Source of the DNA: Thermodesulfobacteriota bacterium
GTDB lineage: Bacteria > Desulfobacterota_D > UBA1144 > Nemesobacterales > JAJCZQ01
Reading direction: 5' to 3'
DNA: 64,000 nucleotides
NCBI GenBank assembly: GCA_965215275.1
Contig: OZ244044.1
Span: 32,001-96,000 of the forward strand
In this document: positions 2,735-63,376 of the stretch, in pieces
Position numbering within the stretch: the first letter of the stretch is position 1
Layout: each line of letters begins with the position of its first letter
The notes under the pieces: generated by a model
Seen by the model: only the letters and a program-made list of their open reading frames with translations
What the model was told of the DNA's origin: nothing
The model's database searches: none
Program-made: the position numbers and the translations under genes

Positions 2735-5700
2735 ATCCAGGTCATTACTGACTTTAGTCTTTATTCTACTGAGTATAATGGTCATAGCTGCAAAAGGGCA
2801 GAGCAGCCTGGAAGGACCATTATCTGAATGCAGAGGTAACAGTGCAGACGTGGAAGATCCGTTATACGGATGTCAGTGGCATCTGAAGAACACTGGACAG
2901 TTTATTTATTCAGGAAAGGAAATAACTGCAGGAGAAGATATAAATATAGAGGGAGTGTGGAACGATGACGTATACGGTTCCGGAATTAATATAGCAATAG
3001 TAAGTGACGGTATGGACCTTTCACATGAGGACCTTTCTGCAAACGTCCGTTCCGGACTGAACTATGATCATTCTGGAAAAAACAATTCTGAAGAAAACAG
3101 TTCAGAAAGCGTTGATCTGTCTGACGGTTCATCCTTTAGTGGAACACGAGCGGCAGGTGTAATTGCAGCAACTGGATATAACGGACTGGGAGTAAGAGGA
3201 ACAGCACCTGGTGCGAGTATATACAGTTACAGGTTATCCGGTGATCTCAGTGAAGCGGACGCAGGGGACGCAAAGGAAATAACCGCTGTATCGGTTAACG
3301 ACTGGGGACCGGAAGATAAATACTTACTTGTTCAGGCATCAACTGTGTGGGAAGAAGGATTGGAACTTGGAATAAGTAAAGGGTTTTACGGTAAAGGAGT
3401 GTTTTACGTCCGGGGAGCAGGGGACGGGCATGAGAATAACGATCAGGCTAATTTTTCTGAATATTCTAATTACTACGGCGTAACTGCCGTGTGTTCAACA
3501 GACGGCTTTGGAAAAAAGAGTATATTTTCAGAAGAGGGAGTAAATCTATGGGTATGTGCACCTGGTTCTGATATTGTAACTACTGATAACAATAACGATT
3601 ACGTTGTAACATCCGGAACTGTCCTATCAGCTTCACAGGCTGGAGGAGTGGCAGCACTGCTGAGAGAGGTGAATGGAAATCTGAGCTGGAGGGATATAAA
3701 GCTTATACTTGCGGGTTCAGCACGGCAGAACGACGTTTCTGACCTTATCTGGGAGACTGGAGCATTTAAATACGGCTCTGACGTGGAAAGATATAAATAT
3801 AATCCTAAGTATGGTTTTGGAGTGGTAGACGCGGAAGCAGCGGCAGAGCTTGCAGAAAGCTGGAAAGGCGTTGGTGAGATGAGGACCGTTACAGCCTTTT
3901 CAGATAATGAGATAACAATTCCTTATGGAGAAGGGAATGGAGAAGGAGAGGCAGACGGGGTCGCTGTCTCAGGACTTATTATCCCTGACCTTGAAGAAAC
4001 AACGTTTACGGAGTTCGTTGAAGTTGAACTTGTTCTCTCGTGTGACTGCTTACAGGACCTCAATATAAATATAACCTCTCCTTCCGGGACAGTATCTGAA
4101 CTTGTGCGGGAGGTTGTAAGTGGACCTTCGGATGAAAAAGAAAAGAACTGCGTCAGTTACCTGAGAAGAACACATCGTTTCGGGTCGGCAAGACACCTCG
4201 GAGAAGACCCTTCCGGAGAATGGATCCTTCATATAACTGATACTGCTTATGGAGATGAAGAAAATGAAGAAAACACCGTTACCCTGCACTCATGGAGCGT
4301 TAAGGTGTATGGACATTTTTATCAGGGATCTGGCAGTGAGATCACTCCTAAAGCTTTAACCTTCGGCGGTGCGACGATCCCAACCCAGAATTATTTTGTA
4401 GGAGAAGCAATAACACCAGTAATGCTGCCTGAGGCAACCGGGGCAAGCGACATAACATACAGTTTTAATCCTGCTTTAGCAAGAGGATTGGAATTTGATC
4501 AGGATACCCGAACTATAAGCGGAACACCAGCTATTACTCATGTGTCAGGTCGTTTGTATTCATATGTTGCAAGAGGTGGCGGACGGGTTGTAACTATAGC
4601 TTTTACTATTAGAATTAGCCCTCGACGAGTGCCGATCTTCGGCAATCAGACGGTAGAAGATCAGGTGTGGGGTAACGGCAGAGCAGTAACGTTAACTCTG
4701 CCTCAGGCTACCGGAGGTAACGGAACTTTAAATTACAGTTTAACTCCTGCTTTATCTTCTATTGGATTGAGTTTTAACAGTTCCACTCGGCAGATAACCG
4801 GAACGACCAACGTCAGTGGACAACTACCCGTAACTACTACTTATACTTATAAGGTAACTGATGATGACGGAGACACGGATACTCGCACCTTCTCTATTAC
4901 TATAGAAGCGAACTCAGAGCCGAGCTTTGGAGGTCAGACTATCCCGAATCAGATATATATTCAAGGGACAACGGCAGGTCTTCCGGTAACGCTTCCTGCT
5001 GCCACTGGTGGTAATTCTCCACTTGTTTATAGTATCTCTCCTGCTTTACCTAATGTATTGAGTTTTAATCCTGATACCCGAGTGATAAGTGGAACTCCAA
5101 TTCAACATATACCTATACCAGTAACTTATACATATAAGGTAACGGACAATGACGGAGATACAGACGAGTTAACATTCAGTATCACAGTAAGAGCAGAACC
5201 CAACACAATGCCGACCTTCGGCAGTGAGACCATAGAAAATAAAGTGTATATAAACGGAGAAGCAGTAATGGAAACACTGCCAGAGGCAACGTCAGGGAAT
5301 GCACCATTAACTTACAGTTTAAATAGGGGTAATAGTGCTTTATTTAAGGAATTGATATTTACTGCATCTACCAGAGAGTTAAGTGGGACACCCAACCTTG
5401 ATGCACGAATACTTCCTATAACTAAGGCTTTTACATATAAAGTAACAGACAATGATGGAGATACAGCAGAGATAACGTTCAGTATAACGATAGAAGAAGA
5501 CAGCGAACCGGACTTCAGCGTGACGACGATAGAAGATCAGGTGTACATGGGGAGATCAATAAGGTTGCCGGTAGCAACGGGAGGGAATGCACCGTTAGTA
5601 TACAGTATAACGCCTCCCTTACCTCCTGGGTTGAGATTGGACAGAAACACAGGGGAAATAAGCGGGACGCCCGCGAGTGCGTCGTCTGAGAGGACCTACA

Positions 5701-5933
5701 CGTACACGGTAACGGACAGGAATGGAGACATTAAAGAGTTGACCTTCAGGTTCAGTGCAGCGGCTCCGCCACCGACAGGTAGTGATCCAGGCGGAGGTGG
5801 AGGAGGATGTGCTGTATCAGATCAGAGCAGTGTTGCTTATGATATTCTCGGAGTAATGGCATGTCTGATGCTTATACCCGTGTCGGTATTGATCAGAAGG
5901 AAGGGAAGAGCTCGGATAAGGACCTGGCAATGA
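2711..5933 (+). CDS. Kexin/S8-family pseudo-protease with P-domain, five Ig-like (He_PIG-type) repeats and a C-terminal Gly-Gly-Cys/TM/basic sorting tail; open frame is 2778..5933, signal peptide frameshifted at C10
   Basis: DPLYGCQWHL, LSWRDIKLIL, YGFGVVDA and a P-domain (ITSPSGT, GEWILHITD, LHSWSVKVYG); repeats of LPxATGGNxxLxYS...ISGTP...YTYxVTDxDGD; tail GGGGGGCAV...LIRRKGR. Confidence 0.85.
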
Positions 5934-39624: not shown

Positions 39625-39742
39625 GATAAATAACGGTTATATAGATGTTATTGGTGTTTTTGTGTAATATAGTTAATATAGTATTGACAAGAAATAGTAA
39701 ATGTGATAAATACTGATATAAGAATAAGTTGGAGGAGAAATT

Positions 39743-41074
39743 ATGAAAAAGATTTTCGTTCTGTTGTTGATGCTTACTTTGTTTTTTACCGTTTCATGTG
39801 ATGATGACGACGGAGGTGTGCAAGGTGAAGCAATACCAAGAAACAGTGTGTTAATTTTCCATCCTAATCCTGACGGTGACGAAGATGTTGAAAGGGATGT
39901 AACAGGGTTGGAGGAATACGGAAAAGAAGATGTACGTGTCTTTGACAAATTCAGGGATGTCCTGTCTACAGGCAATTCAGGTTGGGCTGCTTATAGATGG
40001 AGTTCTGATCATGCTGCTAGTGCTGCTGGTGATGATACTGCCGATACTGCGGATTGTAATGGTGCCTATAAGGTTTCTTACTTGGAAAGAGCGGCAGAAA
40101 ATGCTTATCGTTTTGTAGGGGCAGGGATCTGTCTTGATGGCCGCACTATTGATAACATTTATACCGATGGTACCTATGACGGTAAAGATGAGGACCCCCC
40201 TGGTGATCCAACCGGTATCCCTCATACCGACGCCAGAATTGCAAATCTGCAAAAACTGGTTGATGATACTACACTACTTGTAGATAATATTTCTCATCCT
40301 TCTAGCGATACCATTATTAATGATAAAATTACTGAGACTTGTGGTACACATTCTACTCCAACGGCTATAGGCAGCATAACTGATATAAACAATGAAAATG
40401 GAGAACTTTACCTGTTTATAGCAGAGGTAGAAGTAGATGGTACATTAGTATCTTCAGTAGTGTCTTCAGTAGAAGTCTTATGTCATCCTGATTCAGACAT
40501 AGAAAGCACAGATATATACGAAGCTACGGATGATTCTGGAAGGGCGTATATAAAAGAAGTAGTAGATGAGCTATTTAGCTTAGAAATTATTCATGACCCA
40601 GAAACATTAAAGGACCAGTTCAATGACCATGTAGATGAAGGTGTCTGGAGTGTACACACGGCTCCAAAACTTAACGAAGCAGGAAACGCCCTGGAGTCTG
40701 ATACTTTGAATGATCCACCTAAGCTCAGTTATTTCAGGATATCTGGTAACATTATTAATGACGACTATGATCCTGAAGCTGCAACTATAGATCCAGCGAA
40801 CTTAAGACGATTTATAGTAGGTGCAGGGATATATCTGGACGAAAATAACGAGAATGCTGCCGATGGTGTAGAACTTGAAGGAATTAGAAGCAGGGTCAAA
40901 GAGCATGCTGGAGTCTTGTTAGAGGCGGAGGCAGAAGCGGAAGCAGCAGAGGAAGAATTTAACAGTGACGGTACGTTCTTTGATAATGATGACGGAAACG
41001 TAGACGACACTGATTTTTATTCGACAGCTATGTTAGAGGAAGAGGAATACATTTTTGTCTGGGAAAATCGGTAA
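39743..41074 (+). CDS. Acidic lipoprotein with Cache-like domains (paralog A)
   Basis: Lipobox FTVSC; GWAAYRW..KVSY..FVGAGI, LYLFI..LCHP..DDSGRAYI..KLSYF..IVGAGIY; SD GGAGGAG. Confidence 0.8.
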   Translation: MKKIFVLLLMLTLFFTVSCDDDDGGVQGEAIPRNSVLIFHPNPDGDEDVERDVTGLEEYGKEDVRVFDKFRDVLSTGNSGWAAYRWSSDHAASAAGDDTADTADCNGAYKVSYLERAAENAYRFVGAGICLDGRTIDNIYTDGTYDGKDEDPPGDPTGIPHTDARIANLQKLVDDTTLLVDNISHPSSDTIINDKITETCGTHSTPTAIGSITDINNENGELYLFIAEVEVDGTLVSSVVSSVEVLCHPDSDIESTDIYEATDDSGRAYIKEVVDELFSLEIIHDPETLKDQFNDHVDEGVWSVHTAPKLNEAGNALESDTLNDPPKLSYFRISGNIINDDYDPEAATIDPANLRRFIVGAGIYLDENNENAADGVELEGIRSRVKEHAGVLLEAEAEAEAAEEEFNSDGTFFDNDDGNVDDTDFYSTAMLEEEEYIFVWENR

Positions 41075-41143
41075 TTCCCGTTAGTTTTTCATTCTCGAGC
41101 GATCAGCAAGAGATGATGTGACGGATGTATTAGAAGAATGCAA

Positions 41144-41191
41144 GCAGGGTTAATTGAGTGTCATCCTGACGGTCAGTTAACCCTGTTTTTT
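41144..41191 (+). terminator. Intrinsic terminator after paralog A
   Basis: CAGGGTTAA...TTAACCCTG stem followed by a T run. Confidence 0.8.
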
Positions 41192-41554
41192 GTTGTGTGT
41201 GTGAATATATTTAATATCTATAAACTTATGGATGGTTTTGGCAAAGGAGCACACACAAGGTTGGTATTAGATATCAGAGGCAGTAGAGGAACTGAAAAGC
41301 ATTACTGATACTTGATGAAATGCATAAAAAGTTGAAAGTGCATTTGAGTAATCAGAACTAATAAGGTAGTATATCACTGTAATGGTTCGGTATGTAACCG
41401 GGGGATGGTATTCTTATTAAACTCTTATATAATGGATAAACTGGAATATAGGGTATGAACTGGTGTTTGAGAACAGGTAATACATACCGCGATGTAAACT
41501 TATTTAAGTGATAAAACGGGTGACTAAAACGGATATTATTGGAGGTAAAGCGGT

Positions 41555-42097
41555 ATAGCAAGGTATAGGGGTAATTATCAATCTAACAGGACCCCTGAGA
41601 CCAGAGTTAATTCAAGGATCAGGGTACCAGAAGTAAGGCTTATTGACGTTGATGGAGCACAGTTAGGGGTTGTGAACACTCAGGATGCCTTGGGAAGAGC
41701 TAAAGAGCAAGGGGTTGATCTGGTGGAGGTGGCTTCCAGTGCAAGCCCGCCGGTTTGCAGGTTGATGGATTATGGTAAGTATAAATACGAACAAAAGAAG
41801 AATCAGGCTTTAAAGAAGCAAAAGAGCCAAACTACCAAAGAGATAAAAATGCGACCGAATATCGGGGTAGGGGATTTAAATGTAAAGCTGAACCGTATCA
41901 GAGAGTTCCTTAACAATGGACATAAAACAAAGATCAGGATATTTTTCAGAGGAAGAGAGATCATTCACACTGACATAGGACGTCGGCTGGCGGAAAGGGT
42001 GTATGAGGAACTCAAGGAGATCTCAACCATAGAACTGGAGACAAAACTGGAAGGGAAGAACTTAATAATGGTTTTATCACCGATGAGGAAGAATTGA
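41555..42097 (+). CDS. infC: Translation initiation factor IF-3, ATA start
   Basis: In-frame RVNSRIRVPEVRLID upstream of the called ORF; GGAGGT 8 nt before ATA; PPVCRLMDYGKYKYE. Confidence 0.95.
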   Translation: MARYRGNYQSNRTPETRVNSRIRVPEVRLIDVDGAQLGVVNTQDALGRAKEQGVDLVEVASSASPPVCRLMDYGKYKYEQKKNQALKKQKSQTTKEIKMRPNIGVGDLNVKLNRIREFLNNGHKTKIRIFFRGREIIHTDIGRRLAERVYEELKEISTIELETKLEGKNLIMVLSPMRKN

Positions 42098-50021: not shown

Positions 50022-51574
50022 GGGATTTATATACTTAAGTACCAAACAAAGGATTTAACATATAAATGGGATTGTAATATAATTACAGAGGAATGGATAG
50101 TGAAAAGAGGATAATTAAGCAGACGAGGACTGACCGCAGAGTGATTGGATTGAATCACCCTTCAACTCATAAGGGTTTGGAAAGGACTTTGGACCAGCTT
50201 ACTTATCTGTATAACTGTGCTCTGGAAGAAAAGAAAGAAGCGTACAAAAAATACAAGAAGCTGAAGAAGTGGGGTTTGTCAGAAGAGAGATTACAGATGT
50301 ATTTCTACCCACAATGGGAGTTTGGTACTTCATACAACAAGAAGAACAGAGTTAAATATCTGGAAACAGTTTATGAAGCAGTTAACAGGTTTGTAAGTAA
50401 TATCAGACCTTGTGATGATCCAGTTAACTGGAGAGAGTTAACTGAACAGGAGATGAAGAAGAAGTCAGTAAGTTATGAAGATCAGGCGAAGTCGCTGACG
50501 GAGATAAGGAATGATGTTTTATTGAAAGAATTCAGCAAGGCAGGAGTTCAGGCACAGCAAAGGACGTTAAAGAGAGTGGATAAGGCTTACAGTGATTATA
50601 TTAAAGGATTGAGAGGCAGTCCTAGATATAAGAACAGCAGCAGGAAGGTAAGAAGTTTTGAAACATATACATGGGGAAATGTAAAGAAAGGAGAGAGAAG
50701 GACATATTTAACGGTAAAGGGAGCAGGCAGGATCTCATTCAGGGGAAGCATACCGGAAGGAACAAAATACATAAGAATATTAAGAACAGCTTTAAGAGTG
50801 GAGGTTCAGTTTGTTTACGAGAAGATAGCTGGAGAGGACAGAGGACTGGACAGACCTGTAGGAATGGACCTTGGAGTAAGGAACAGGATTGCTTTATCAG
50901 ATGGGTCGTTTTACAAGGGAACTGAAGTAAGCAGAAAGAAAGACAAAAGAAAGCAAAGAGCAGTTTCAAGAGCTGAGAAAAGTTCGAACGGCAGAAAGAA
51001 GAAGATAAAGCTGCTTACGAAGGAACGAGCAAGAACAGCAATGAAGGAACATAACAAAGTTCACAGGTTAACTACAGAACTGTCAAGAGCGTATAATTTT
51101 GTTATATCAGAAGATCTGAGATTAAGGGATATGAGCAGATCGGCAAAGGGGAACGTGGGAGATCCGGGTAAGAAAGTAAAGCAGAAATCTGGATTAAACA
51201 GGTCCTTACGGGAACAGCAATTGGGCAAGGTATTAGATCAGCTTGAATACAAGGTTAAAAGCACTGGTGGCAAGCTGATCAGGAACCCGGCTCAATATAC
51301 GTCACAGACCTGTTCTGAGTGCGGATACAGAGATAAAAGGAACAGAAGAGGAGAAGTATTTAAGTGCGTGTATTGCGGTCATAAAGACCATGCAGACACG
51401 AATGCAGCTATAAACATTTGCAATAGTGAAAACACGCTATGTCGGGTGGGACAGCCAGACTTGAGCTCCCGATGCAGGCTGTAAATGTTTTATCAAAAGA
51501 GAACAGGGAATCAAGAGGGACTCTGCTTGCAGAACAGTATGTTTAGTACTTGTGTGCTAAAGTATATAACTCCC
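50022..51574 (+). mobile_element. tnpB-only element bounded by imperfect inverted repeats
   Basis: Left GGGATTTATATACTTAAGTAC; reverse complement of right GGGAGTTATATACTTTAGCAC (18/21 identical); no tnpA inside. Confidence 0.7.
50093..51484 (+). CDS. tnpB: RNA-guided endonuclease TnpB family protein
   Basis: RuvC motifs GMDLG, SEDL and ADTNAAINI; zinc finger CSECG..CVYCG; YTSQTC; KSGLNRSL. Confidence 0.96.
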   Translation: MDSEKRIIKQTRTDRRVIGLNHPSTHKGLERTLDQLTYLYNCALEEKKEAYKKYKKLKKWGLSEERLQMYFYPQWEFGTSYNKKNRVKYLETVYEAVNRFVSNIRPCDDPVNWRELTEQEMKKKSVSYEDQAKSLTEIRNDVLLKEFSKAGVQAQQRTLKRVDKAYSDYIKGLRGSPRYKNSSRKVRSFETYTWGNVKKGERRTYLTVKGAGRISFRGSIPEGTKYIRILRTALRVEVQFVYEKIAGEDRGLDRPVGMDLGVRNRIALSDGSFYKGTEVSRKKDKRKQRAVSRAEKSSNGRKKKIKLLTKERARTAMKEHNKVHRLTTELSRAYNFVISEDLRLRDMSRSAKGNVGDPGKKVKQKSGLNRSLREQQLGKVLDQLEYKVKSTGGKLIRNPAQYTSQTCSECGYRDKRNRRGEVFKCVYCGHKDHADTNAAINICNSENTLCRVGQPDLSSRCRL

Positions 51575-60685: not shown

Positions 60686-61933
60686 ATGATGAAGAAAGGT
60701 CTTATATGTAAAGTTCTGCTTTTGCTTGTTCTGCATGTATATACGGATCATTCCTTTTCAGATGAACTAAGAGGCAAATGGCTGTTTGAAGACAGGAACT
60801 GTACCAGATGTCATACAATAGGCAGGGGAATATTTGTAGGTCCGGACCTTTACGAAATAGGCAAAAGGTACGATAAGGATGATATTACAAGCTGGATTAC
60901 CGACCCCGGGGTAATTTATCAGAAGGCTGGTAAAATGCCTGTGAATGAAGGTTATCCTCCGATGCCCAGGCTAAATGTCCCTGCTTTGGAAGCCGAGGAA
61001 ATAACCAGGTTTCTGCTTAACAATCAGATTAAAAAGACCGACAGGACGGGCGGCACTATAACCGGGAAGGTTAATAACAGAACGAAAGGTGATATCATCG
61101 TTGAGGGTGCTGACGTATATCTCAGGTCTTTTATGGGTGATAAAAAGATGGATGAGAAGCTGTCCATTTCAAATGAGGAAGGGGAATTTAGCTTTCGTAA
61201 TTTGAGATGGGACAGGAGCTACAGCTTGAGAATAAATTCAAACGGCGTGGAGTATGAAACCGCGAGAATGGTTTTTCCTCCTGATAGAGGTGTAATTGAT
61301 CTGGACCTGCCAGTTTATGACTTGAGCAGTAATGATTCAGGCATAGTAGTAAATGTTAACCATCACGTTATAGAAGTGGAGGATAAGGCTGTTTCCGTTG
61401 TGGATATATACCAGTTTGAGAACACGGGAAACACCATCTTCATGGGTAAAAAGGAACCAGAGGACGATTTTAACAAGACCATCAGGCTGAACGTTCCTGC
61501 AAAAGCCGAGAATATCAATTTTATGCAAGGGATCGAAAAGGAAAACGCCGTGAGAGAAGACGATGTGGTATATGATACTGCTGGTTTTCCGCCAGGAACA
61601 AAAAGAGTGGTAGTTGCTTATAAATTACCCTTGGGTTTTGGAAGAAGTAAACTGAAGAAGTCTTTTCACTATGATACCAGATCCGCTGTTGTGATAGCCA
61701 CGGAGTCAAGCAACGTTAAAGTGGATGGATTAGGTGATATGAAAAACGTTTCCTTGGATGATCAAAACTACCGGCGGTGGATCGGTAATGATATAAAAAA
61801 GGGGAAGGATATAAAGATAAGCTATTACAGTATGCGATTGGAACTCAATAAAATAGAAATTTATCCTATAATCATCTTTATATTGCTACTTCTGTTTGCA
61901 TTTTTATTCAGAATTAAAAAGAAAATAAAATAG
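60686..61933 (+). CDS. c-type cytochrome fused to beta-sandwich domains with a C-terminal TM anchor
   Basis: Signal peptide, CTRCH..VGPDL..MP, carboxypeptidase-regulatory-like GTITGKV..GEFSF, C-terminal hydrophobic helix. Confidence 0.8.
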   Translation: MMKKGLICKVLLLLVLHVYTDHSFSDELRGKWLFEDRNCTRCHTIGRGIFVGPDLYEIGKRYDKDDITSWITDPGVIYQKAGKMPVNEGYPPMPRLNVPALEAEEITRFLLNNQIKKTDRTGGTITGKVNNRTKGDIIVEGADVYLRSFMGDKKMDEKLSISNEEGEFSFRNLRWDRSYSLRINSNGVEYETARMVFPPDRGVIDLDLPVYDLSSNDSGIVVNVNHHVIEVEDKAVSVVDIYQFENTGNTIFMGKKEPEDDFNKTIRLNVPAKAENINFMQGIEKENAVREDDVVYDTAGFPPGTKRVVVAYKLPLGFGRSKLKKSFHYDTRSAVVIATESSNVKVDGLGDMKNVSLDDQNYRRWIGNDIKKGKDIKISYYSMRLELNKIEIYPIIIFILLLLFAFLFRIKKKIK

Positions 61934-62083: not shown

Positions 62084-63376
62084 ATGAAGAAGATTTGCGT
62101 CTTGTTGTTGATGCTTACCTTGTTTTTTGCCGTTTCGTGTGATGATGACGACGGTGGCGTACAAGTCGTACAAGGTGGAACAGTAGAAGTAGAAGAACCA
62201 AGAAACAGTTGGCTGATTTTCCATCCTAATCCTCAATCTGACGGTAGTGAAGGTGATTTAACTGAGGAAAGAGATGTAACAGAGTTGGAAGAATACGGCA
62301 AAGAAGGTGTACGTGTCTATGGCAAATTTATGGATGCTCTATCCACGGACAATTCAGGCTGGGCTGCTTACAGATGGAGTTCTCGTCATGATTTTACTGA
62401 TGATGGGAATAATACTCCTGATGCTACGGACTGTGATGGTGCATATAAGGTTTCTTACGTAGAAAGAGCGGTAGATAACTATTTTGTAGGGGCAGGAGTG
62501 TGTCTTGGTACCTTTAATAATCCTTCCGTTAATAATTATCACGACGACGCTAGAGTTGCAAATCTGCGATTTTTGATCAATCAAGCTTTAGGTAGTGGTT
62601 CAGGTATAGACGATTTTGAGCGTGCTAATCCTGACACTAACGATGCTGCTGTTAATACTGCTATTGAAACTGTATGTGACACATTTTCCACTCCAACATC
62701 CATAGATAGTTATGTGAGCAATACAGATATAGAAAATGAAAATGGGGAACTTTACCTGTTTATAGCAGAGGTAGTAGGAGATACTACAGTAGTACCTTCA
62801 GTAGTATCTTCAGTAAACGTCTTATGTCATCCTGATTCAGAAATAGAAGGCACAGATATCTACGGAGTTACGGATGATTCTGGAAGGGCATATATAAAAG
62901 AAGCAGTAGATGAGCTATATGAATTAGAAGGTGATACTATTAGAGATTACACAGTAATAGAAGGTGTCTGGAGTGTATACACGGTTCCAAAACTTAACGA
63001 CGCAGGAGGAGGAAACTACAATTTGGAACCTGATACTTTGAATGACCCACCTAAACTCAGTTATTTCAGGATATCTGGTAATATTGGTGAGAATAACAGA
63101 CGATTTATAGTAGGGGCAGGGATCTATCTTGATGCAAATAACGCAAATGAGGCCACCGGTAACGAGCTTAAAGTTATTAGACAAAGGGTAAGAACGGCCG
63201 TTGGACTCTTGAGAGGAGAAGAGATCGCTGAAGAGGAGGAATTAAGCAGTCTGTTCGCTGATGGAAATGCTTTTATTGCTGATGGAAGTGAGTTCATTTT
63301 AAATGCTGATCCTGTCGACCAAAATGATATGATCATTGATCCAGAGGCATACATTTTTGTCTGGGAAAACCGGTAG
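62084..63376 (+). CDS. Acidic lipoprotein with Cache-like domains (paralog B)
   Basis: Same lipobox and conserved blocks as 39743..41074. Confidence 0.8.
   Translation: MKKICVLLLMLTLFFAVSCDDDDGGVQVVQGGTVEVEEPRNSWLIFHPNPQSDGSEGDLTEERDVTELEEYGKEGVRVYGKFMDALSTDNSGWAAYRWSSRHDFTDDGNNTPDATDCDGAYKVSYVERAVDNYFVGAGVCLGTFNNPSVNNYHDDARVANLRFLINQALGSGSGIDDFERANPDTNDAAVNTAIETVCDTFSTPTSIDSYVSNTDIENENGELYLFIAEVVGDTTVVPSVVSSVNVLCHPDSEIEGTDIYGVTDDSGRAYIKEAVDELYELEGDTIRDYTVIEGVWSVYTVPKLNDAGGGNYNLEPDTLNDPPKLSYFRISGNIGENNRRFIVGAGIYLDANNANEATGNELKVIRQRVRTAVGLLRGEEIAEEEELSSLFADGNAFIADGSEFILNADPVDQNDMIIDPEAYIFVWENR

What the first reader, a model, noticed from the sequence alone, without database searches (positions are those of the whole stretch)
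39743..41074. Stand-alone lipoprotein made of circularly permuted tandem Cache domains
Seen: after the lipobox the protein begins with what looks like the second half of an sCache_2-type domain (LIFHP..GWAAYRW..KVSY..FVGAGI). A full domain follows (LYLFI..LCHP..DDSGRAYI..KLSYF..IVGAGIY), and the protein ends with a first half (helices..FNSDGTF..YIFVW). Four Cys are conserved in both paralogs. There is no TM or signalling output domain. Known: Cache domains bind small ligands and are usually fused to receptors. Inference: the C-terminal strand completes the N-terminal half-domain, within one chain or by head-to-tail polymerisation, defining a possibly undescribed ligand-binding or surface family.
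Basis: inference. Interest (0 to 1): 0.7.

Follow-up and report, generated by a model that had tools for sequence, protein, structure and literature searches.

The report
Circularly permuted double-Cache lipoprotein family
This gene encodes a predicted membrane-anchored protein whose two small-molecule-sensing Cache domains are written in a shuffled order, so that its last strand is predicted to complete its first half-domain, and it likely binds small acids such as acetate or pyruvate without any signalling part of its own.

Summary
Window 39743-41074 encodes a 443-aa protein with a lipobox and two sCache_2 repeats in the order B-A-B-A (A = helices plus strand 1, B = strands 2-5) instead of A-B-A-B. 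All 27 family members end 2-4 residues after the strand-1 motif; all 30 more distant Cache relatives end on a B half. The middle domain matches sCache_2 structure 4K08 (Z 14.1). In a compact homolog's model the terminal strand is confident (pLDDT 83, ten strands, pTM 0.78); in the window protein's model it is not (about 54). The six-residue carboxylate pocket of PscD is complete in the split domain only if the last strand joins the first half. In-chain closure is inferred; pairing was not displayed, and no complex prediction was available, so a swapped oligomer is not excluded. Receptor-less tandem-Cache lipoproteins are common; the permutation is the new part. The family is narrow (3 of 120 genomes of the class, one Dehalococcoidia genome). 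This genome has six copies; the thrS-infC copy is the parent. No chemoreceptor or kinase with an outside sensor domain was found as partner. New variant of a known kind.

The parts
39743..41074 (+). Gene for the permuted double-sCache_2 lipoprotein (443 aa, P0001)
   Evidence: full-length homologs; intact frame in all six paralogs
39743..39799 (+). Signal peptide and lipobox Cys19
   Evidence: hydropathy 1.93 and lipobox pattern in 20 of 27 members (pattern recalled); signal peptidase II gene in the genome
39839..40135 (+). N-terminal half-domain B (residues 33-131; strands 2-5; H40, Y84, W86, K110; Cys105/Cys130)
   Evidence: homologs match dCache_2 positions 217-296 here; aligns to PscD 5G4Y
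40217..40840 (+). Complete middle sCache_2 domain (residues 159-366; Y223, F225, H248, H305, A307, K327; Cys200/Cys247)
   Evidence: model aligns to 4K08 38-181, Z 14.1, rmsd 2.9, 138 aligned
40841..41071 (+). C-terminal half-domain A (residues 367-443: long helix 377-409, acidic loop, terminal strand 435-442 with Y436 and F438)
39684..39691 (+). Invariant TTGACAAG upstream of all six paralogs, likely a -35 box
   Evidence: not listed by the consensus promoter scan
41145..41191 (+). Long hairpin plus T run, likely intrinsic terminator, kept behind all six paralogs
   Evidence: 21 pairs, 2 with a change on both sides; not listed by the terminator scan
62084..63376 (+). Paralog (430 aa, P0002), a dispersed copy

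Best explanation
The protein is a circularly permuted tandem of two sCache_2 domains behind a lipobox, predicted to close on itself so that its last strand completes the N-terminal half-domain, and it likely acts as a membrane-anchored binding protein for C2-C3 carboxylates. Shown: order B-A-B-A, internal duplication, sCache_2 fold of the middle domain (model), no TM or output domain. Inferred: the C-terminal helix and strand 435-442 join residues 33-131 in the same chain, giving a two-fold pseudo-symmetric ring with the chain ends at the strand 1/strand 2 hairpin; two disulfides (105-130, 200-247); origin by permutation by duplication from a repeat array; a PscD-like pocket in the split domain (Y436, F438, H40, Y84, W86, K110) and a changed pocket in the middle domain (H305 and A307 where 13 of 25 aligned members have Y and F). 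Least certain: the job, taken here to be capturing and holding short acids at the cell envelope, since no receptor to relay a signal was found.
For: Order: compact homologs match dCache_2 217-296 at the N-terminus and 90-188 in the middle; against normal-order tandems of the same order the family aligns shifted by half a repeat (P0026 38-269 to L021 138-406, 95.7%); 27 of 27 end on the strand-1 motif, 0 of 30 distant hits do and 30 of 30 end on a B half. Fold. Closure: P0026 model has ten strands, terminal strand 323-329 in a block of pLDDT 83, first strand 42-47 at 84, pTM 0.78; the edge strand 2 has only strand 1 as neighbour in this sheet (established PAS/Cache topology, recalled). Middle domain is A+B, not B+A: it aligns whole to 4K08, and Cys200/Cys247 are lost together in P0017 while Cys105/Cys130 are lost together in P0026 and P0027. 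Origin: the two B-A units are sister groups against 27 normal-order junction units, support 99/97. Ligand: PscD binds through Y90, W92, H103, Y143, W145, K156 (PMC5062169, passages; F for W92 in 4EXO, PMC11844446, passages); the split domain has Y-F-H-Y-W-K in 15 of 25 aligned rows (23 with all six columns filled), K and the second Y in 24 of 24. The window encodes malate synthase and isocitrate lyase, which use acetyl units.
Against: In the window protein's own model the terminal strand has pLDDT about 54 and the first strand about 52-59. No call displayed the contact. Profiles from normal-order proteins detect the C-terminal A half in only 8 of 27 members (5 bits or more), not in P0001, and the direct profile match of that piece to the seven normal-order tandems is 1.5%. 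Alignments are shallow (25 rows). Motif match does not fix the ligand (PMC5062169 says so itself). No transporter is linked to any copy except a NupC-like gene (label recalled) near one; no TRAP DctM was found and the two SSF genes are unlinked and unassigned. Six diverging copies with dN/dS 0.44-0.97 are more than a plain acetate trap would seem to need.
Confidence: 0.55

Rival explanations
1. Same permuted fold, but the copies serve as variable surface recognition or adhesion proteins; the pockets bind host-derived small groups and the acidic loops and outer helices diversify.
For: Six copies; the helical half of the middle domain has 34% identity and pooled dN/dS 1.02 against 74-76% and 0.41-0.60 for the strand cores. 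Another genus of the order has its own set of receptor-less tandem Cache proteins with C-terminal anchor-like tails (up to 13 matches in one genome). Cache domains enriched in sponge archaea were proposed as host-recognition candidates (PMC7848895, one passage).
Against: Pooled pairs are not independent and alignment error in loops inflates dN; relaxation explains the values too. Two relatives have one copy each. Surface exposure and habitat were not established here.
Confidence: 0.15
2. The C-terminal helix and strand complete the N-terminal half of a neighbouring molecule, giving swapped dimers, rings or chains on the membrane, by analogy with type V pilins.
For: The end is tightly fixed: 25 of 27 members stop exactly two residues after the WE motif, 2 of 27 after four, also in the Dehalococcoidia member. 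An Arg lies just before the first strand in several members (R33 here). Type V pilins are lipoproteins that self-complement as monomers and exchange a C-terminal strand after cleavage (PMC13655056, passages), so a closed monomer model does not exclude this.
Against: One chain closes in the model. The two linkers from strand 5 to the next helix are homologous, as a symmetric ring needs. The Arg is absent in P0026, P0009 and P0013. No second subunit gene or protease is linked in the loci read. Mfa1 model score 14.6 against a cut-off of 130.
Confidence: 0.12
3. It is an accessory sensor that binds a carboxylate and passes the signal in trans to a membrane receptor.
For: Solute-binding proteins do stimulate receptors (PMC8050422, abstract and passages). 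Weak matches of homologs to the MctS sensor kinase model (E 3e-6 to 1e-5, far below cut-off).
Against: No MCP in this 99.9% complete genome (control rang in 8 of 14). Only two HisKA kinases, neither with a sizeable outside domain. No receptor next to any copy or homolog read.
Confidence: 0.1
4. Only the middle domain is functional; the terminal halves are leftovers of a truncated repeat array that do not assemble.
For: Low confidence at both ends of the window protein's model; structure searches aligned only the middle domain.
Against: Both ends keep the pocket residues, better than the middle domain does in this protein; the terminal strand has dN/dS 0.40 and a fixed end in 27 of 27; sequential aligners cannot match a split domain whole.
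Confidence: 0.05

Closest known systems
sCache_2 sensor domains (PF17200): Adeh_3718 4K08, PscD 5G4Y, VP0183 4EXO
   Same: Fold of the middle domain (Z 14.1-15.1 to 4K08) and the carboxylate pocket residues
   Different: Those sit between two TM helices of chemoreceptors; here a lipobox, no output domain, two repeats, one split across the termini, long acidic insertions, two inferred disulfides
dCache_2 (PF08269), described as a duplication of sCache_2 (PMC4822843, passages)
   Same: Two sCache_2 repeats in one chain; compact homologs pass the Pfam cut-off
   Different: Order is B-A-B-A, cut at the strand 1/strand 2 hairpin; the window protein itself is below the cut-off
Receptor-less secreted or lipid-anchored sCache_2 repeat proteins (P0032, P0033, P0035, P0054; L020, L021, L024)
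   Same: Signal peptide or lipobox followed only by Cache repeats
   Different: All in normal order, ending on strand 5; uncharacterised as far as my searches show
Type V pilins (FimA, Mfa1)
   Same: Lipoprotein with a conserved C-terminal strand that fills a groove
   Different: Beta-sandwich fold and protease-triggered exchange (PMC13655056); here a Cache fold is predicted and no polymer is shown
Natural circular permutation by duplication (saposin/swaposin, DNA methyltransferases; PMC3320104, passages)
   Same: Repeat array cut at matching internal points
   Different: Not found described for Cache domains in my searches; the one mention concerns how the old Cache motif mapped onto DcuS and CitA (PMC4822843)

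Membership tests
sCache_2 domain (PF17200) | N-terminal helices plus five-stranded antiparallel sheet | tested here: met
   middle domain aligns to 4K08 over 138 residues, Z 14.1, rmsd 2.9; P0026 Z 15.1, rmsd 2.6, 131 aligned
sCache_2 domain (PF17200) | Same fold formed by the split domain (C-terminal A plus N-terminal B) | tested here: inconclusive
   ten strands and a confident terminal strand in the P0026 model, weak in P0001; contacts not displayed
sCache_2 domain (PF17200) | Profile score above the curated cut-off | tested here: inconclusive
   P0001 no hit, P0002 19.4 of 25 bits; P0018, P0019, P0020, P0026 pass
C2-C3 carboxylate-binding sCache_2 (PscD type) | Y, W/F, H, Y, W/F, K pocket motif | tested here: met
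   split domain Y436 F438 H40 Y84 W86 K110; middle domain keeps four of six
C2-C3 carboxylate-binding sCache_2 (PscD type) | Measured binding | not testable with these tools
   needs thermal shift or ITC
dCache_2 (PF08269) | Two sCache_2 repeats | tested here: met
dCache_2 (PF08269) | Collinear A-B-A-B order | tested here: not met
Cache-containing transmembrane receptor | Flanking TM helices and an output domain | tested here: not met
   none of 27 members is longer than 470 aa
Bacterial lipoprotein | Signal peptide with lipobox Cys, and processing enzymes in the genome | tested here: met
   pattern in 20 of 27 (4 of the 7 misses look N-truncated, 2 have Cys at the same place); signal peptidase II present; lipidation itself untested
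Type V pilin | Family profile score | tested here: not met
   Mfa1 model 14.6 bits against 130
Type V pilin | Conserved Arg/Lys cleavage site after the anchor | tested here: inconclusive
   Arg before the first strand in some members only
Type V pilin | Polymerisation by strand exchange | not testable with these tools

The most novel reading that the evidence does not exclude
The permutation turned a sensor fold into a self-assembling surface protein: the fixed C-terminal strand, which carries two of the six pocket residues, is exchanged between neighbouring lipoproteins, so that ligand binding and polymer or ring formation are coupled, and six paralogs can co-assemble.
Probability: 0.1. Interest if true: 0.75.

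Novelty: new variant of a known kind. Interest (0 to 1): 0.42.

Why it matters
It appears to be a natural circular permutation of a Cache domain, the commonest extracellular sensor fold of prokaryotes; I found none described. It shows that the strand 1/strand 2 hairpin can carry the chain ends while the pocket motif is kept, which is a useful hint for designing split or permuted carboxylate biosensors. It also points to an unexplained class: receptor-less Cache proteins, expanded twice in one bacterial order. The family is small and no function is shown, which limits the weight.

Tried and rejected
Sequence search of solved structures with P0001 alone: one chance hit. Foldseek on the P0001 model: none at E 0.001 or better, best 4K08 at 1.6e-3. 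No pilin or other second fold was listed by the structure searches, which cover mainly the middle domain. Longer, fused forms: none among 7991 candidates of 787-2245 aa (weak evidence). Metagenome contig scan: 533 pattern matches, none confirmed. A single B-A unit protein: not seen among the 41 hits; P0028-P0030 are short pieces of family members. G012 hit is a signal-peptide-like match to an unrelated protein. Sequencing runs: no RNA holder listed; no reads were laid. ESM Atlas gave only generic Cache clusters, whose domain order cannot be seen. A crude motif regex missed many strand-1 motifs and was replaced by profiles. Earlier findings of this scan: nothing. Rejected: two independent permuted domains B-A, B-A (the middle A+B aligns whole and the 200/247 Cys pair bridges it); assembly artefact (27 sequences from several sources share both ends).

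Full report
Observation. The paralog is at 62084-63376. tblastn and a profile search find six copies in the 1.99-Mb genome, 37-61% identical to this one, none with a stop inside.

Family. A database search gave 25 proteins of 243-470 aa, six of them from this genome. A profile search of 1.84 billion representatives gave 41 hits: 11 family members or pieces (E below 1e-22), then a gap, then 30 ordinary Cache proteins (E 6e-10 and weaker). In the class, 3 of 120 genomes match, all in this genome's family. A relative's record is labelled Thermodesulfobacteriota; that the lineage is the one called Dadabacteria, often sponge-associated, is my recall and was not tested.

Domain order. Call A the helices plus strand 1 and B strands 2-5. 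Pfam places the N-terminal part of compact homologs at dCache_2 217-296 and the middle at 90-188. Profiles of the pieces match B with B (98.5%) and A with A (93.2%), and mismatched pairs at 0.2-0.3%. Against seven normal-order tandems from another genus of the order, the family aligns shifted by half a repeat (95.7%); the C-terminal piece alone matches them poorly (1.5%). Profiles built from the 30 distant hits find a B half first in all 27 members (in the N-truncated P0022 it is the middle one) and an A half at the end in 8 of 27, best 30 bits in P0026, none in P0001; all 30 distant hits end on B (these were the training set). 27 of 27 members end 2-4 residues after the strand-1 motif, 0 of 30 distant hits do. 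The order B-A-B-A is therefore shown.

Structure. The P0001 model (mean pLDDT 68.8, pTM 0.74) aligns residues 159-366 to the whole of 4K08, Z 14.1, ahead of 4EXO at 11.6. Its terminal strand 435-442 is weak (about 54). The P0026 model is better (78.4, pTM 0.78): ten strands, the last at 323-329 in a block of 83 and the first at 42-47 at 84; middle domain Z 15.1 to 4K08, Foldseek E 4.5e-6. Because strand 2 is an edge strand whose only neighbour is strand 1 (recalled topology), I infer that the model closes the split domain within the chain. The Cys pairs are lost together (105/130 in P0026 and P0027; 200/247 in P0017), which suggests two disulfides, the second tying A to B in the middle domain.

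Ligand. PscD holds propionate with Y90, H103, Y143 and K156 between W92 and W145 and binds C2-C3 acids (PMC5062169, passages); 4EXO has F at the first aromatic site and a His-to-Leu change shifts specificity to lactate (PMC11844446, passages). The family profile aligns H40, Y84 and W86 to the PscD sequence; Y436/F438 and K110 are placed by motif spacing and the internal repeat. The split domain has the full set in 15 of 25 aligned rows (P0004 also; P0007 has His for the first Tyr). Two of the six residues come from the last strand, so the conserved pocket exists only if the ends meet. The middle domain has Y-F-H-Y-F-K in 13 of 25, but H305 and A307 in this protein.

Origin. In a tree of continuous B-A stretches (13 of the 27 members, 27 stretches of distant hits; the seven tandems were left out), the family's two units are sister groups, 99/97: one internal duplication at the root, fitting permutation by duplication (PMC3320104, passages). 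The gene sits between thrS and infC also in L005 and L006, while in 4 of 4 relatives checked that lack it thrS and infC are adjacent. The five dispersed copies carry the same upstream box and terminator; between them they also carry decayed pieces of thrS (2 copies), rplT (4), the downstream glycosylase gene (3 by DNA match) and the next gene (1). This locus is therefore the parent. Pairwise dN/dS is 0.44-0.97, lowest in the signal peptide and strands, near 1 in the middle helices (pooled, non-independent pairs).

Partners. No MCP, no DctM, two HisKA kinases without a sizeable outside domain, two unlinked SSF transporters. Neighbours differ among copies and in the Dehalococcoidia locus. Malate synthase and isocitrate lyase are in the window. 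The role as a carboxylate trap is thus a best guess; surface recognition and strand-swapped assembly are the live rivals.

Comparison and novelty. Receptor-less Cache repeat proteins are ordinary: 20 of the 30 distant hits show only Cache families in Pfam, and several read as lipoproteins. The permutation is what is new. A search for 'circular permutation' with 'Cache domain' gave 5 papers, 4 listed; I read passages of one (PMC4822843), where the term concerns the old motif's mapping on DcuS and CitA; the other three I saw as listings only. Searches showed nothing on this family. PMC8050422, PMC13655056 and PMC7848895 were seen as passages. No supplements were read; those of PMC4822843 list Cache proteins and could include members. 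Verdict: real, new variant of a known kind, interest 0.42.

Noticed in passing
L020, L021, L022, L023, L024, L032-L035, L037, L038 (G017, G021, G033, G036, G039): One genus of the same order has its own expansion of receptor-less secreted sCache_2 proteins, mostly normal-order tandems, most ending in a Gly-Gly-Cys, hydrophobic, basic tail that looks like a sorting signal (label recalled); 13 and 12 profile matches in two genomes.
   Followed up: partly
G000:C1 near 95540, 1293640-1293840, 1299410-1299690, 1426990-1427240, 1428820-1429090, 353810-353930: Decayed fragments of thrS, rplT, an HhH-GPD glycosylase gene and a tamB-like gene (label recalled) flank the dispersed paralogs, with infC and rpmI missing: segmental copies of the parent locus.
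   Followed up: yes
window 41075-41370: About 165-300 bp of non-coding DNA behind the gene is 73-86% conserved in all five other copies, more than the terminator alone needs; not searched against RNA families.
   Followed up: partly
window 2778-5933: 1051-aa subtilase-like protein with repeated beta-rich modules and the same Gly-Gly-Cys, hydrophobic, basic tail.
   Followed up: partly
window 50093-51484: 463-aa TnpB/Cas12f-like protein of IS605 type.
   Followed up: no
window 60686-61933: 415-aa protein with a CxxCH motif after the cytochrome c maturation genes, no Pfam hit at 1e-5.
   Followed up: no
window 41540-42097: The infC reading frame seems to begin upstream of the listed GTG (Pfam IF3_N match starts at model position 23), as expected for a non-standard start codon (recalled).
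   Followed up: no
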